Under the pieces are notes generated by a model, which worked only from the letters and a program-made list of their open reading frames with translations, did not search any database and was not told where the DNA came from. DNA of 18,824 nucleotides from a virus (Duplodnaviria > Heunggongvirae > Uroviricota > Caudoviricetes). How positions within the stretch are numbered: position 1 is the first letter of the stretch; each line of letters starts with the position of its first letter. Positions 8,018 through 18,824 of this stretch are shown piece after piece. The position numbers and the translations under genes were made by a program. Location: the IMG/VR virus record IMGVR_UViG_3300031873_001030. The stretch is one strand, 5' to 3'.

Positions 8018-8251
8018 ATGGCAAAAAAGAAAAGAAAGGGTTTTGCTGATAATCTAGTTGGATTTTTCATCGGAATTATGGTAGTAGTCATAATTGCCGT
8101 ATCAGTTGTAATTCCAACAATCCAGACTCAAGTTACTGCATACGCTGCAAGTGCTAATTCGTCAGTTACAGTGGTAACACTATTGAACTTGATACCATTG
8201 TTCATAGTATTGGCAATCTTGGTTCTGGTAGTCGGTTTGATGAGATTCTAA
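8018..8251 (+). CDS. Spindle-shaped-virus major capsid protein (SSV1 VP1/VP3-like hydrophobic helical hairpin)
   Basis: 77 aa with a basic N-terminus and two hydrophobic helices. VVIPTIQTQV and TLLNLIPLFIVLAIL match my recollection of mature SSV1 VP1 (LLPVIVSQV...TLLNLVPLFYILVLI). Confidence 0.82.
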   Translation: MAKKKRKGFADNLVGFFIGIMVVVIIAVSVVIPTIQTQVTAYAASANSSVTVVTLLNLIPLFIVLAILVLVVGLMRF

Positions 8252-9055: not shown

Positions 9056-9196
9056 TTGGCAAAAATGACAGAAAAGGGAAAAAAATATTTCTCAAAAAAG
9101 CTGAAGACATTGCTGAAAGAGGGATATTCAAAGAAACAAGCCCTTGCAATAGATTACTCCATGTTGAGAAAAAAAGGATACAAGGCAAAAAGATAG
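9056..9196 (+). CDS. 46-aa basic helical microprotein (MAKMTEKGKKYFSKKLKTLLKEGYSKKQALAIDYSMLRKKGYKAKR), probable virion DNA-binding protein
   Basis: TTG start 8 nt after GGAGGT. The EGYSKKQALAI motif resembles the EG.S/P.KQA.AIA small basic proteins of viruses. Confidence 0.72.
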   Translation: MAKMTEKGKKYFSKKLKTLLKEGYSKKQALAIDYSMLRKKGYKAKR

Positions 9197-9740: not shown

Positions 9741-9815
9741 ATGGCAAAAAAAGGAAAAGAAGAAAAGCAGGAGAAGGGTAGAAATCCATGGTCAGCTCCA
9801 AAAGACTGGAAATGA
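9741..9815 (+). CDS. 24-aa charged microprotein (MAKKGKEEKQEKGRNPWSAPKDWK)
   Basis: Strong SD GAGGTGA at 9727-9733. The TGA overlaps the ATG at 9812. Confidence 0.55.
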   Translation: MAKKGKEEKQEKGRNPWSAPKDWK

Positions 9816-9997
9816 ATAACATGTTAACAAAAAAGAATTCACCAATAGAAAAAATTATAGAAAGATGGAAGGACGAGGAGAATCCTAAGACTGCCTTGAA
9901 GAATGAATATAAAGCATTCCACGAATTTGATAGAAGAAATGGGATAGATAAAAAACATTTGAGATGGATGTATGGTAATAAAAAAAGTAAAAGGTAG
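9812..9997 (+). CDS. Small basic hypothetical protein (ORF-track start 9788 probably too early)
   Basis: The ATGA overlap with the upstream micro-ORF suggests a start at 9812 (or 9821). Confidence 0.55.
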   Translation: MNNMLTKKNSPIEKIIERWKDEENPKTALKNEYKAFHEFDRRNGIDKKHLRWMYGNKKSKR

Positions 9998-10310
9998 ATA
10001 CATCCTTTATTCAAGGACAAGTGGAAGGAGATTGAGCAAGCCATTGCCATCAAGAGCAGCTGCATTGAAACGCGAACGCCAGGTTCAATATTGGAAGAGA
10101 ATAAAAGGATTTGAATTTCCGATACCAATTGAACTTCTTCTTATTGTGATGATTACTGTGATACTTGGAGTAAGTGTTTTGATTCCTATATTGCAAAATG
10201 CAATCGCATCAGAACAGAATGTAGCAATACAGGGAATGTATGGTTTGATAATCTTGTTTTCAGTATTGTTTGATGTTGTAATCATAATGGCATGGTTGAA
10301 AATTTCGTAA
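9972..10310 (+). CDS. Fusion protein: basic N-terminal domain + diverged capsid-like hydrophobic hairpin (minor capsid protein candidate)
   Basis: aa 1-46 are R/K-rich (KGRYILYSRTSGRRL...ALKRERQVQYWK). aa 47-112 carry VSVLIPILQNAI...GLIILFSVL, which parallel VSVVIPTIQTQV...NLIPLFIVL of the 8018 protein. Confidence 0.7.
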   Translation: MVIKKVKGRYILYSRTSGRRLSKPLPSRAAALKRERQVQYWKRIKGFEFPIPIELLLIVMITVILGVSVLIPILQNAIASEQNVAIQGMYGLIILFSVLFDVVIIMAWLKIS

Positions 10311-10329
10311 AATAAATCTTCCAGAATAT

Positions 10330-10342
10330 AAATTTATTTAAG
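10330..10342 (+). promoter_or_regulatory. TATA-like element (AAATTTATTTAAG) upstream of speD-like gene
   Basis: AT-rich intergenic box resembling the archaeal TTTAWATA consensus, ~40 nt before the start. Confidence 0.45.
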
Positions 10343-10379
10343 TAATGAAAACAAAATGATATGATACAATTAAAATGAA

Positions 10380-10784
10380 ATGATAGAAAAAGGAACACAG
10401 GCTTGCATTGATTTGTTTGGTTGTAATGAGAATATATTAAATGATTCTATATTCTTGAAAAATCTGATTGCGAAAGCTGTGATAGATTCTGATTTTGTGC
10501 TTGTTGAAAAGATAAAGATGCATCAGTTCACTCCATATGGAGTGACTGGTTATGCATTGCTTGCTTCCTCACATATAGCAATCCATACATGGCCAGAATA
10601 TAACTTCGCATCGATAGATATTTTTGCATGCGACTCAAGAAAAAAAGTCAATACTGCTATCAAGACAATCATAAATGGACTGAATCCTAAGAAAGTGAAA
10701 TCGTTGATATTTAGCAGGGGGTTTATATGTCAGAATGTGAACATGAATGGATTGGTTCTAGAACCTGTCGCAAATGCGGCATAA
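10380..10784 (+). CDS. speD: S-adenosylmethionine decarboxylase proenzyme family (class 1B, pyruvoyl-dependent)
   Basis: Motifs DLFGC, HQFTPYGVTG, LLAS|SHIAIHTWPEY and ASIDIFAC match the prokaryotic AdoMetDC signature. Actual substrate is uncertain. Confidence 0.92.
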   Translation: MIEKGTQACIDLFGCNENILNDSIFLKNLIAKAVIDSDFVLVEKIKMHQFTPYGVTGYALLASSHIAIHTWPEYNFASIDIFACDSRKKVNTAIKTIINGLNPKKVKSLIFSRGFICQNVNMNGLVLEPVANAA

Positions 10785-10994: not shown

Positions 10995-11168
10995 ATGAAA
11001 AGAAAGAACTTCGATAATGCTATTGAAAGTGGGCATAACATGCTGATAATGATAATGCTATTCATAGGGTTGGATGTCGGACTTAAGGCTTATGAAATTG
11101 TAGTATGGATTTTTCCACTTATTGCAAATATAATGAGAAGGATTGGCAAGATGAGGTTCTTAGAATGA
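10995..11168 (+). CDS. 57-aa membrane-associated microprotein (MKRKNFDNAIESGHNMLIMIMLFIGLDVGLKAYEIVVWIFPLIANIMRRIGKMRFLE)
   Basis: Manual translation, coupled to both neighbours (TAGATG and ATGA). Confidence 0.6.
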   Translation: MKRKNFDNAIESGHNMLIMIMLFIGLDVGLKAYEIVVWIFPLIANIMRRIGKMRFLE

Positions 11169-15640: not shown

Positions 15641-15789
15641 TTATAATACCGCAACCATGGGCAGACATACTATCTTATGGAGTAATAGTGCTTGCAGTAG
15701 GAATAATGGCATGGTTCATTTGGCAGCAACCAATCTGCTTCAGGACAGAAGAAAAGGAAAAGGAAAAGGGGAGAAGTGATAAGAAATGA
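15637..15789 (+). CDS. 50-aa single-TM microprotein (MIIIPQPWADILSYGVIVLAVGIMAWFIWQQPICFRTEEKEKEKGRSDKK)
   Basis: ATGA overlaps at both ends. It replaces the shadow ORF 15564..15779. Confidence 0.7.
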   Translation: MIIIPQPWADILSYGVIVLAVGIMAWFIWQQPICFRTEEKEKEKGRSDKK

Positions 15790-16316
15790 GCAAAACACTA
15801 TTCATAATAGCATTGCTTGTAGCGATTAGCATCATACCAATAGGAGCTATCTTCCAGAACACATGGCTTGACATAGGACTTGGAGCATTCGCAATGCTTC
15901 TTTTTATAATCCACATGAAGACAAAGAGCAATTCAGAATACGAATCAAGGGAGAAAGAACCGACTTATGAACAGGAAGGCAATGTCATAGAACAACCAGA
16001 AGAGCCAGAAGTGCTAGGCATAAGGAAAAGGACAAAAGCAAAAGTAAGAAAGAAAGAAGAAGAAAGTGGAGGAAGCGGATTTCCTTTCATAGGTACTTTC
16101 ATAGGAGTAGCTGTAGCTATCATAGTAGGTGTGGGTGTTGTAATACCAGTCATAAACAACCAGGTGACAAACATGACAAATTCAGTGGAATTAGGCAATT
16201 CTACTAGTATAACTTCATCAGTAAGTACTTTACTAAGTATTGTTCCAATCTTGATGGTATTGGCTATAATAATATCTGTAGTAGGAATGGTTGGTAGGTT
16301 TGGAAGTGGTGTATAA
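15786..16316 (+). CDS. Fusion protein: N-terminal TM hairpin + charged linker + C-terminal capsid-like hairpin (aa 99-176)
   Basis: The C-terminal VVIPVINNQV...TLLSIVPILMVLAII closely parallels the 8018 capsid protein. The linker is E/P-rich, then K/R-rich. Confidence 0.78.
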   Translation: MSKTLFIIALLVAISIIPIGAIFQNTWLDIGLGAFAMLLFIIHMKTKSNSEYESREKEPTYEQEGNVIEQPEEPEVLGIRKRTKAKVRKKEEESGGSGFPFIGTFIGVAVAIIVGVGVVIPVINNQVTNMTNSVELGNSTSITSSVSTLLSIVPILMVLAIIISVVGMVGRFGSGV

Positions 16317-16495: not shown

Positions 16496-16864
16496 ATGTT
16501 ACAAAAGTTCGATTGGAGAGGCTTGCCATATGTTCTCCCTCTGATTTTCTTAATTGCAATATCAATACCTGGGGTGATATTTGTTGGAGGAATATTCCAT
16601 GAATGGCTTCATAGTCAGGATTTTGAGACTGAATCCGTATGTATCGACTATACTAACAACTCTTTCATGTACATTACCAGTGCCTACATATACCTTGGCA
16701 ATGAGACCAACAATCACACAAATTTTGACGAAAGAAGCCTTTCCGTATCCAGACATTTCGAGGTATATGCCCTTGAAGGAATAGTAATCGGGATATTATT
16801 TACGCTAATCCTACTATCTTCATTGCTATTGACCAGATTCATAGTGACAAAACATGTGATATGA
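16496..16864 (+). CDS. Small membrane protein with a HExxH motif; putative membrane zinc metalloprotease (M50-like/zincin, minimal)
   Basis: HEWLH (16598-16612) at the end of TM1. HFEVYALE precedes TM2. Confidence 0.55.
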   Translation: MLQKFDWRGLPYVLPLIFLIAISIPGVIFVGGIFHEWLHSQDFETESVCIDYTNNSFMYITSAYIYLGNETNNHTNFDERSLSVSRHFEVYALEGIVIGILFTLILLSSLLLTRFIVTKHVI

Positions 16865-17568
16865 TGCTAAAGACAAACAAGTTGAAACTTGAAAGAATCC
16901 CAATCTGGAAAATAAAAACATCCAACTTCAATATACGAGCCAAGATAGAACCAGACCAAAACCTAAAAAGAAATCTTTATGAAAAAGGACAAATAAACCC
17001 TCTGATAACTCTGAATGACTATACACTGATTTCAGGGTACAGAAGATATGCCGAATTGAAAAGGTTACGTGCAAGAAAAGTGTGGATACTGAAAGTATCA
17101 TATTTGAAAAAGTCAAACGTATTGGAATATCAATTATCTGAAATATTGCATTCAAAAGATATCAATCCTATGGACAAAGGGCGTGCATTCAAGAGACTTA
17201 TGGATTTGAAGAAATTATCAGTACAAAAGCTTTCAAAAATCCTGAACATCCCAAAACACACATTAGAATGGCATCTGAAACTGTTAAAACTTCCAAAAGC
17301 CATCAAGTCAGACATATCTGAAGGAAGGCTCAAGCCATATGGGATAAGGATGCATAGACTATATGGAAAGAAGAGGATACGGACAAGGAGTGACTTCATA
17401 CTATCTTCAAATGATATTCTCTTCGATTCATTCCTGAAAAGGATAGCTGCAATGCGGACCTTGATACCGCAAATCGAATATACAGAAAACCAAAGCAAAG
17501 AGGCAAAAATACTTATTAAGGAACTGCTAACTATCATTGAAAAGAACGGAGGTGCAAATCATGTTTAG
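16861..17568 (+). CDS. parB: ParB/Spo0J-like protein (ParB-N domain + HTH)
   Basis: N-I-R, GQINPL (box I), LISGYRR (GxxR box II), KDINPMD and the HTH-like LSVQKLSKILNIPKHTLEWHLKLL. Confidence 0.82.
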   Translation: MMLKTNKLKLERIPIWKIKTSNFNIRAKIEPDQNLKRNLYEKGQINPLITLNDYTLISGYRRYAELKRLRARKVWILKVSYLKKSNVLEYQLSEILHSKDINPMDKGRAFKRLMDLKKLSVQKLSKILNIPKHTLEWHLKLLKLPKAIKSDISEGRLKPYGIRMHRLYGKKRIRTRSDFILSSNDILFDSFLKRIAAMRTLIPQIEYTENQSKEAKILIKELLTIIEKNGGANHV

Positions 17569-17702: not shown

Positions 17703-18824
17703 ATGACAAGAAGCGATTTCCTAAAAATACTAGAGCCGTCTGAAGAGAAAGAAGAAAAACCAGAGAAACAACCAGAGGAAACTATCATCCAAAAACCCGA
17801 AGAAGATGTTAATGAGGAAAAAAAAGATGAAATAGAGGAACAACCATCTCCAAGTCCAATTCCTGAAGTAACCATAGAGCTAATAGAAGACACAAGCAAA
17901 ATAGAAAAGTACAAACCTATAATTGAAGACATGGTGATAAAAAAAAGCGACTTGAAACAAGTCGATGAAGTTACCTTAGAAGACAAACTGATAAGCAAGA
18001 AACAACCAGACTGGAAACTAGCCGCCGAAGCTGCAAAAACTGTGCATGTAGAGCTTTCTGAAGACGAACTTGACAGACTATCCATGTCTCTTTCCGAGCA
18101 AACCAAGGAAGATTTGATGAACACTATACGCAGCCTAAACATAACCGACGTCCGCATTGAACTAGACTCGCGTGCAATCAAAATAATGACCAACATAGTC
18201 AACAAATGCAAAGAACTAAACGTCGACTGGTTCATAGCCATAGTGGGAGGTGAAGGCGTAGGCAAGTCAACCCTAGCCTTAAACTTATTCGCCCTCGTCT
18301 GCAAAATGAATAATGTAAATCCAATAGAGATACTTTTAAGAACATTGATATATGATGAAGACGAACTGTTAAGATTCATATCCTCCGTAGACCCGAGAGA
18401 GAAGTTTCTTGCATTAGACCTAGATGAAGGAGCCAACGTCCTGTTCAATCGTGAAAGCATGCAAACCAAGCGAAGCTACATACTAAAATTCTTCAACGTC
18501 ATGAGATTCCTAAATGCAATAGTCTTCATACCAACCCCAAACATCAAATTCCTTGATAAGAATGTAAAAGCCCACAGAATAAAGTCCATATTCTATATAC
18601 CAAGCAGAGGAACATATTGGTTTTACGATAAAGAACAAGTAGACCGAATGCTAGCCAACGAGACAAGCAAGAAATGGTATTGGGTCGAACCCAAAGCAGT
18701 AGGGTCATTCTCCGTAAACAAGGAACTAGAATCAATCGTAAACCTAATCAAGGAAAACTATATACGAATGTTCAGCGAAAAAGTGAAAACCTTCCTCCAA
18801 TCCGAAGAAAAAAAGAAATACAAA
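17703..18824 (+). CDS. P-loop ATPase with an acidic N-terminal extension (3'-truncated); putative packaging/assembly ATPase
   Basis: The frame is open from ATG 17703 to the window end (374 codons). Walker A AIVGGEGVGKST (GGEGVGKST at 18246-18272) and Walker B FLALDLDEG (18405-18431), followed by IPTPNIKFLD. Confidence 0.9.
   Translation, partial: MTRSDFLKILEPSEEKEEKPEKQPEETIIQKPEEDVNEEKKDEIEEQPSPSPIPEVTIELIEDTSKIEKYKPIIEDMVIKKSDLKQVDEVTLEDKLISKKQPDWKLAAEAAKTVHVELSEDELDRLSMSLSEQTKEDLMNTIRSLNITDVRIELDSRAIKIMTNIVNKCKELNVDWFIAIVGGEGVGKSTLALNLFALVCKMNNVNPIEILLRTLIYDEDELLRFISSVDPREKFLALDLDEGANVLFNRESMQTKRSYILKFFNVMRFLNAIVFIPTPNIKFLDKNVKAHRIKSIFYIPSRGTYWFYDKEQVDRMLANETSKKWYWVEPKAVGSFSVNKELESIVNLIKENYIRMFSEKVKTFLQSEEKKKYK

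What the first reader, a model, noticed from the sequence alone, without database searches (positions are those of the whole stretch)
9972..10310. Basic nucleic-acid-binding-like domain fused to a capsid hairpin: possible genome-to-shell tether
The first 46 aa resemble, from recall, small basic viral proteins of the I.K..G.Y.L.S...GR.LG......A.KRERQVQ(Y/F)FK type that are usually stand-alone or sit on head proteins. Here no stop or internal ATG separates them from a capsid-like hairpin. Inference: the protein anchors DNA to the inner capsid wall, or the basic domain is released on processing, as with the cleaved SSV1 VP1 leader.
Basis: inference. Interest (0 to 1): 0.72.

Follow-up and report, generated by a model that had tools for sequence, protein, structure and literature searches.

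The report
Basic leader on spindle-virus capsid paralogue
A lemon-shaped archaeal virus really does fuse a small, positively charged, widely shared viral protein to the front of a minor coat protein, but the join sits where such coat proteins are normally cut and a close relative has lost the domain, so it is more likely a cleavable passenger than an essential tether between genome and shell.

Summary
The fusion is real. Contigs from three other samples (another strain) keep it in frame, and a diverged relative (P0013) has it in the same gene order. Residues 47-112 are a divergent paralogue of this virus's SSV1/His1-type major capsid hairpin. Residues 1-46 belong to a widespread, unnamed beta-beta-alpha basic viral family that is mostly stand-alone, including in a related spindle virus. 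The junction K45-G46|F47 lies in register with the K-G|F kept by 21 of 22 capsid homologues and with the mapped SSV1 VP1 cut. One close relative deleted the domain cleanly, leaving a short K-G leader. Another homologue starts right at the cut. Best reading (about 45%): a precursor cut by the capsid-maturing, prepilin-type protease, releasing a basic protein on the lumen side. A permanent tether is second (about 25%); an essential one is unlikely. In large tailed-phage proteins the same domain is often flanked by T4-type protease motifs. DNA binding and cleavage are untested. The scan noted prepilin-type leaders on spindle capsids before, on other DNA.

The parts
9972..10109 (+). Basic beta-beta-alpha module, residues 1-46, net charge +14; member of a widespread unnamed viral microprotein family; predicted cytoplasmic/lumenal leader
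   Evidence: (AF2 pLDDT 92)
9984..10097 (+). 114-nt (38-codon) stretch missing in relative L001; both ends of the domain (MVIK and RIKG) are left, so L001 is most simply a deletion; short A-rich repeats flank it
10104..10112 (+). Junction K45-G46|F47, putative class III (prepilin-type) processing site, 26 residues before the conserved Pro of helix 1 (24-27 in capsid homologues)
   Evidence: SSV1 site read from the primers in PMC5748691 Table 2
10071..10097 (+). Tract with 10 substitutions in 27 nt against strain X2-X4, mostly silent; probable recombination patch in the domain's conserved helix
   Evidence: clustering p about 5e-5
10110..10310 (+). Two-helix hydrophobic hairpin, divergent paralogue of the spindle-virus major capsid protein (VP3-like minor capsid candidate); dN/dS 0.17-0.27
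8018..8251 (+). Major capsid protein, 77 aa, short basic leader ending K-G|F
   Evidence: His1_capsid E 3.6e-5, below its cut-off; phrog_11172 E 2.9e-6; SSV19 VP1 7xdi_A E 4.1e-6; 22 homologues
9788..9997 (+). Upstream small ORF overlapping the first 26 nt of the fused gene; conserved in L001 (81% aa, dN/dS 0.17); an ORF with the same overlap exists in L085
10380..10784 (+). S-adenosylmethionine decarboxylase, directly downstream in the window, L001 and L085; marks synteny
15786..16316 (+). Third capsid-hairpin paralogue behind a membrane anchor and charged linker; has S-G|F, not K-G|F

Best explanation
The gene encodes a precursor of a minor capsid protein whose leader is a folded basic microprotein. 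Shown: the fusion, the homology of both halves, and the position of K-G at the family's conserved leader end. Inferred: the hairpin inserts in the host membrane with its N-terminus in the cytoplasm; the protease that matures the major capsid protein (probably a host class III/prepilin peptidase) cuts after G46; this yields a 66-aa hairpin that joins the shell and a free 46-aa basic protein made at the assembly site, where it probably coats or neutralises DNA and may be packaged. The module is accessory and can be lost or encoded separately.
For: K-G sits 24-27 residues before the conserved Pro in 21 of 22 capsid homologues behind a variable short basic leader, and 26 before it in P0001, P0002 and P0013. 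Two further paralogues in related viruses also keep K-G (L168, L169). SSV1 VP1 is cut after TKG and the SSV9 leader ends TRG; the five residues before the cut are essential, the Glu after it is not (PMC5748691). Archaeal class III sites depend on positions -2 (basic), -1 and +1 (PMC3387779). The L001 deletion leaves an 8-residue basic leader ending K-G. P0006 has no leader and starts MDFP, exactly where cutting would leave FEFP or MEFP. A spindle virus whose capsid is 89% identical has the domain as a free 46-aa gene after the capsid gene (L166:11074-11214). 64 of 83 hits end within 15 residues of the domain and none is followed by a membrane helix. In 10 of 14 distinct embedded copies the domain is flanked on both sides by [LVIM]-x-E (background 0.075 per side), like the T4 gp21 motif L/I-X-E (PMC9026906), which suggests the free domain is the working unit.
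Against: No cleavage was measured and the protease is unidentified even for SSV1. K/R-G is common in the tails of free family members (20 of 49), so the K-G may be inherited. Position +2 is Glu, which fails the FlaFind pattern as I recall it (paper not held), and the hydrophobic stretch starts about 6 residues after the site. Only two independent fused genes are known. The embedded phage copies are not independent of each other. The leaderless P0006 shows that this paralogue needs no leader.
Confidence: 0.45

Rival explanations
1. Permanent tether: the protein stays whole, the hairpin sits in the shell, and the lumen-facing basic domain holds the DNA against the wall.
For: The SSV19 VP1 N-terminus forms the inner surface, and its Arg-rich end was proposed to contact DNA (PMC9351363). 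Net charge +14. Weak fold likeness to lambda integrase arm-binding and AP2 domains (Z about 4) and TM 0.92 to part of a predicted phage integrase model. The fusion persists in two lineages whose hairpins are 62% identical. Glu at +2 might block cleavage.
Against: The domain is lost in L001 with the hairpin still conserved (dN/dS 0.17-0.19), absent in P0006, and free in L166. The join is in register with the maturation motif. The best fold matches are UPF0339/YegP-type proteins (Z 5.4-5.6), at scores that may mean only a common arrangement.
Confidence: 0.25
2. Incidental gene fusion: a free basic gene landed in front of the hairpin gene, the stop was lost, and the domain is a tolerated passenger; the two parts need not work together.
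For: P0013 keeps an in-frame ATG at the hairpin start behind a weak purine-rich stretch. Each fused domain is closer to free genes of other viruses (64%, 50%) than to the other fused one (37%). A recombination-like tract lies in the domain. SSV1's basic VP2 is patchy and dispensable (PMC9608457).
Against: The window and strain X2-X4 have TTT in place of that ATG, so their hairpin can only be made as the fusion. The domain is under purifying selection (dN/dS about 0.2 against L085, with near-saturated silent sites; mostly silent or conservative changes against X2-X4). One origin of the two fused domains is not rejected (p-AU 0.32).
Confidence: 0.17
3. The module is a protein-docking tag or scaffold that brings cargo or the minor capsid protein to the assembly site, not a DNA binder.
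For: The conserved polar residues K33, R34, Q37, K42 lie on the helix, whereas integrase/AP2 domains read DNA with the sheet (own knowledge). In tailed phages free copies lie beside terminase, portal and head genes, and look-alikes are fused to portal and XkdF proteins.
Against: Most members are free 43-50-aa proteins with no cargo; median net charge +11. The family occurs with unrelated capsid types, which fits a shared ligand such as DNA better than a shared protein partner.
Confidence: 0.11
4. Assembly or sequencing error hiding a stop after YWK.
For: The protein is on record from one contig only; the laid data are contigs, not raw reads.
Against: Three other samples and the diverged P0013 keep the frame open.
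Confidence: 0.02

Closest known systems
Fusellovirus VP1 precursor and paralogue VP3 (SSV1, SSV9, SSV19; PHROG 11172)
   Same: Two-helix hydrophobic hairpin; variable N-terminal leader ending K/R-G at the same distance from helix 1; more than one paralogue per genome; leaders exchangeable in SSV1 (PMC5748691).
   Different: Here the long leader is on a minor, divergent paralogue while the major capsid protein has a short one; the leader is a member of a free-standing folded family; the contig is 92 kb and from sediment; P0001 itself hits no library model.
SSV1 VP2, small basic virion DNA-binding protein
   Same: Small, basic, patchily distributed, shared with unrelated viruses, dispensable (PMC9608457).
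   Different: No sequence match was seen; VP2 is a separate gene. An analogy only.
Archaeal class III (prepilin/PibD/FlaK) signal peptides
   Same: Basic residue at -2, Gly at -1, Phe or Met at +1, then a hydrophobic helix.
   Different: Glu at +2; 46-residue folded leader; hairpin capsid fold, not a pilin; no paper found linking PibD to spindle-virus capsid processing.
UPF0339/YegP (DUF1508) and lambda integrase arm-binding/AP2 folds
   Same: Small beta-sheet plus helix; Z 5.6 (6q2z), 5.4 (3bid), 4.0 (1z1b), 3.8 (2gcc) over 44-47 residues.
   Different: 8-14% identity; scores in the range of common arrangements; no family match above cut-off.
T4 gp21-processed internal head proteins and phage polyvalent proteins (PMC9026906, PMC5512222)
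   Same: Embedded copies of the domain lie in large multi-enzyme phage proteins between [LVIM]-x-E motifs.
   Different: This virus has no HK97-type head and the junction here is K-G, not L-x-E; I did not confirm gp21 in those phage loci.

Membership tests
Spindle-shaped virus capsid proteins (SSV1 VP1/VP3, His1 VP21) | Two hydrophobic helices joined by a short polar loop | tested here: met
   AF2 helices 53-80 and 84-111, pLDDT about 89; only four rows support this part
Spindle-shaped virus capsid proteins (SSV1 VP1/VP3, His1 VP21) | Sequence homology to the family | tested here: met
   Indirect: hairpin to this virus's capsid family 94-96% by hhalign with shuffle control; that family to SSV19 VP1 E 4.1e-6. 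No direct library hit
Spindle-shaped virus capsid proteins (SSV1 VP1/VP3, His1 VP21) | Encoded in a spindle-virus structural module | tested here: met
   Capsid gene, P-loop ATPase-like ORF from 17703, giant Asn/Thr-rich proteins
Spindle-shaped virus capsid proteins (SSV1 VP1/VP3, His1 VP21) | Present in the virion shell | not testable with these tools
   No virions or proteome
Class III signal peptide substrates | Basic -2, Gly -1, permitted +1 | tested here: met
   K-G|F, K-G|F, K-G|M in P0001, P0002, P0013; rule from PMC3387779
Class III signal peptide substrates | Hydrophobic stretch right after the site; small or hydrophobic +2 | tested here: inconclusive
   +2 is Glu and the helix starts near +7; the +2 rule is recalled, source not held
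Class III signal peptide substrates | Cleaved by PibD/FlaK | not testable with these tools
   Needs an assay; host unknown
SSV1 VP2-like virion DNA-binding proteins | Sequence homology to VP2 | tested here: inconclusive
   No Pfam or PHROG hit to a VP2 model; no direct comparison made
SSV1 VP2-like virion DNA-binding proteins | Binds DNA | not testable with these tools
   Charge only: +14
DUF1508/YegP or DUF2188 | Profile match above the curated cut-off | tested here: not met
   Best: DUF2188 in 6 of 54 members, E 0.0028; none for P0001
Integrase arm-binding/AP2 DNA-binding domains | Three-stranded sheet plus helix with DNA-reading residues on the sheet | tested here: inconclusive
   Z about 4, rmsd about 3; conserved polar residues lie on the helix

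The most novel reading that the evidence does not exclude
One unnamed basic microprotein is delivered into unrelated virions as a cut-out cassette by each virus's own maturation protease: between L-x-E sites in large tailed-phage proteins, and as the K-G-ended leader of a capsid paralogue in an archaeal spindle virus, cut by the host prepilin peptidase. The fused, deleted and leaderless alleles would then be a natural series that names the long-unknown SSV1 VP1 protease.
Probability: 0.2. Interest if true: 0.75.

Novelty: new variant of a known kind. Interest (0 to 1): 0.48.

Why it matters
The protease that matures spindle-virus capsid proteins, the purpose of their variable leaders, and how the genome is held in a fluid shell are open questions (PMC5748691). 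This locus gives four natural states of one paralogue (two different folded leaders, an 8-residue remnant, no leader), which can be tested side by side for cleavage. It also points to a common, unnamed basic viral family with no assigned function. Its weight is limited: the domain is dispensable, the virus is uncultured, and basic capsid N-termini and cleaved leaders are already known.

Tried and rejected
No whole genome held. No RNA holder listed. Pattern scans for the whole protein, the hairpin, the capsid protein, the ATPase and the P0013 domain found no relative in IMG/VR; the hairpin found none in JGI metagenomes; the decarboxylase found none in GTDB genomes, so the host is unidentified. 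Proteins longer than 196 aa were not searched by word index for further fusions; the representative search had no length limit and showed none. P0003 is a repetitive chance hit. Foldseek on the whole model gave nothing significant; VIA hits for the hairpin are generic, SSV19 VP1 at Z 6.8, rank 32. The domain tree cannot decide one origin or two. The complex prediction of the hairpin with two capsid subunits gave no answer. Wang et al. 2022 and the FlaFind paper are not held. The block of SSV9 in a pibD mutant (PMC7217056) is explained there by pili and includes no genome replication, so it does not test capsid processing. Assembly error rejected.

Full report
Observation. The ORF at 9972-10310 is 112 aa, open, with no in-frame ATG between the start and residue 60. 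It lies on a 92-kb contig in the structural region of a spindle-shaped archaeal virus: the 77-aa ORF at 8018 matches His1_capsid (below its cut-off), the SSV VP1 PHROG and the solved SSV19 VP1. The host is unknown; the holders are mostly sediment metagenomes.

It is not an assembly error. Contigs of three other samples cross the junction in one piece. They come from a strain about 97% alike, read FFK for YWK, carry mostly silent changes and have an in-frame 6-nt deletion just after the join. Ten of the changes fall in 27 nt (10071-10097; p about 5e-5), which looks like a recombination patch. A diverged relative, P0013, has the same fusion with the same overlap upstream and the same decarboxylase downstream.

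The C-terminal half. Residues 47-112 model as two hydrophobic helices. They hit no library family, but match the virus's own capsid protein at 94% (E 1.4e-7), far above segment shuffles and other membrane ORFs, and the capsid family profile at 96%. It is a divergent paralogue, under purifying selection like its neighbours (dN/dS 0.17-0.27). That it enters the shell is inference.

The N-terminal half. Residues 1-46 belong to a widespread unnamed family. It folds as a small sheet plus a helix (pLDDT 92), with modest likeness to UPF0339/YegP proteins and to integrase arm-binding and AP2 domains. Median net charge is +11. Most copies end right after the domain and none is followed by a membrane helix. 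Free copies often lie beside terminase, portal and head genes (no background was computed). Embedded copies sit in large multi-enzyme phage proteins, and 10 of 14 are flanked on both sides by [LVIM]-x-E, like the T4 head protease motif (PMC9026906); these copies are partly related and gp21 was not confirmed in their loci. A spindle virus with an 89% identical capsid encodes the domain as a free gene after the capsid gene (L166). DNA binding was not shown.

Four states of one gene. The window and P0013 are fused, with domains only 37% identical while the hairpins are 62%; each domain is closer to free genes elsewhere, though one origin is not rejected. L001 lacks exactly 114 nt and keeps both ends of the domain, so it is most simply a deletion that leaves an 8-residue basic leader. 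P0006, from a different gene context, has no leader and starts MDFP. P0013 keeps Met at that place; the window has Phe. An essential tether is therefore unlikely.

The junction. K45-G46 lies 26 residues before the conserved Pro of helix 1 in all three leader-bearing alleles. In 21 of 22 capsid homologues K-G lies 24-27 residues before it, behind a short variable basic leader, and two further paralogues in related viruses keep it. The primers in PMC5748691 show that SSV1 VP1 is cut after TKG and that the SSV9 leader ends TRG; there the five residues before the cut are essential, the following Glu is not, leaders are exchangeable and the protease is unknown. This is the pattern of archaeal class III sites (PMC3387779). 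Against: K/R-G is present in 20 of 49 free tails, so it may be inherited; +2 is Glu; no paper links PibD to these capsids. I reached this reading before looking; the scan had noted such leaders on other spindle viruses, which is not independent support.

Mechanism. Shown: fusion, homologies, register, dispensability. Inferred: membrane insertion with the N-terminus on the cytoplasmic, later lumenal, side, as in SSV19 VP1 (PMC9351363); a cut after G46; release of a basic protein at the budding site, where it probably coats DNA; the hairpin joins the shell as a minor component. I put this at 0.45, a permanent tether at 0.25, an incidental fusion at 0.17, a docking tag at 0.11 and an error at 0.02.

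Verdict. A real and, as far as I could find, undescribed architecture, but a variant of the known leader-plus-hairpin plan of fusellovirus VP1. Its value lies in the allele series as a test of capsid processing and in the unnamed basic family. Interest 0.48.

Noticed in passing
window 8018-8050 and P0014-P0035: The major capsid family keeps K-G|F (some K-G|Q, one K-G|L) after a short variable leader in 21 of 22 homologues, a prepilin-type signature.
   Followed up: partly
L008, L012, L014, L018, L045, L051, L060, L065, L073, L076, near the match: The basic domain is embedded in large phage proteins between [LVIM]-x-E motifs, as if excised by a T4-type head protease.
   Followed up: partly
L086:555-1977: The closest relative of the viral AdoMet decarboxylase in the JGI scan (62%) lies beside an agmatinase-like ORF and what reads like a tRNA, as in a cellular archaeal contig; a possible pointer to the host. 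Neither neighbour was tested.
   Followed up: no
window 9056-9196; L166:11225-11380: A 46-aa basic protein (phrog_2423, E 1.1e-6) has an apparent homologue directly after the free basic-domain gene in L166, so the two microproteins recur together.
   Followed up: no
window 15786-16316; P0033: The third capsid paralogue and a look-alike have S-G or G-G, not K-G, before the hairpin, so they may be handled differently.
   Followed up: no
L168:3771-4265; L169:4246-4464: Further capsid paralogues in related viruses: one with a long loop insertion right after the capsid gene, one short and highly divergent; both keep K-G.
   Followed up: no
window 9785-10540 and 11103: Strain X2-X4 differs from the window almost only from 9785 on, with about 23 nt inserted near 9815 and 36 nt at 11103: a mosaic boundary.
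   Followed up: no
window 16861-17568 and 17703-18824: A ParB-like protein (Pfam HTH_ParB, E 2e-7) and a Walker A-bearing ORF with no Pfam match that runs off the window.
   Followed up: no
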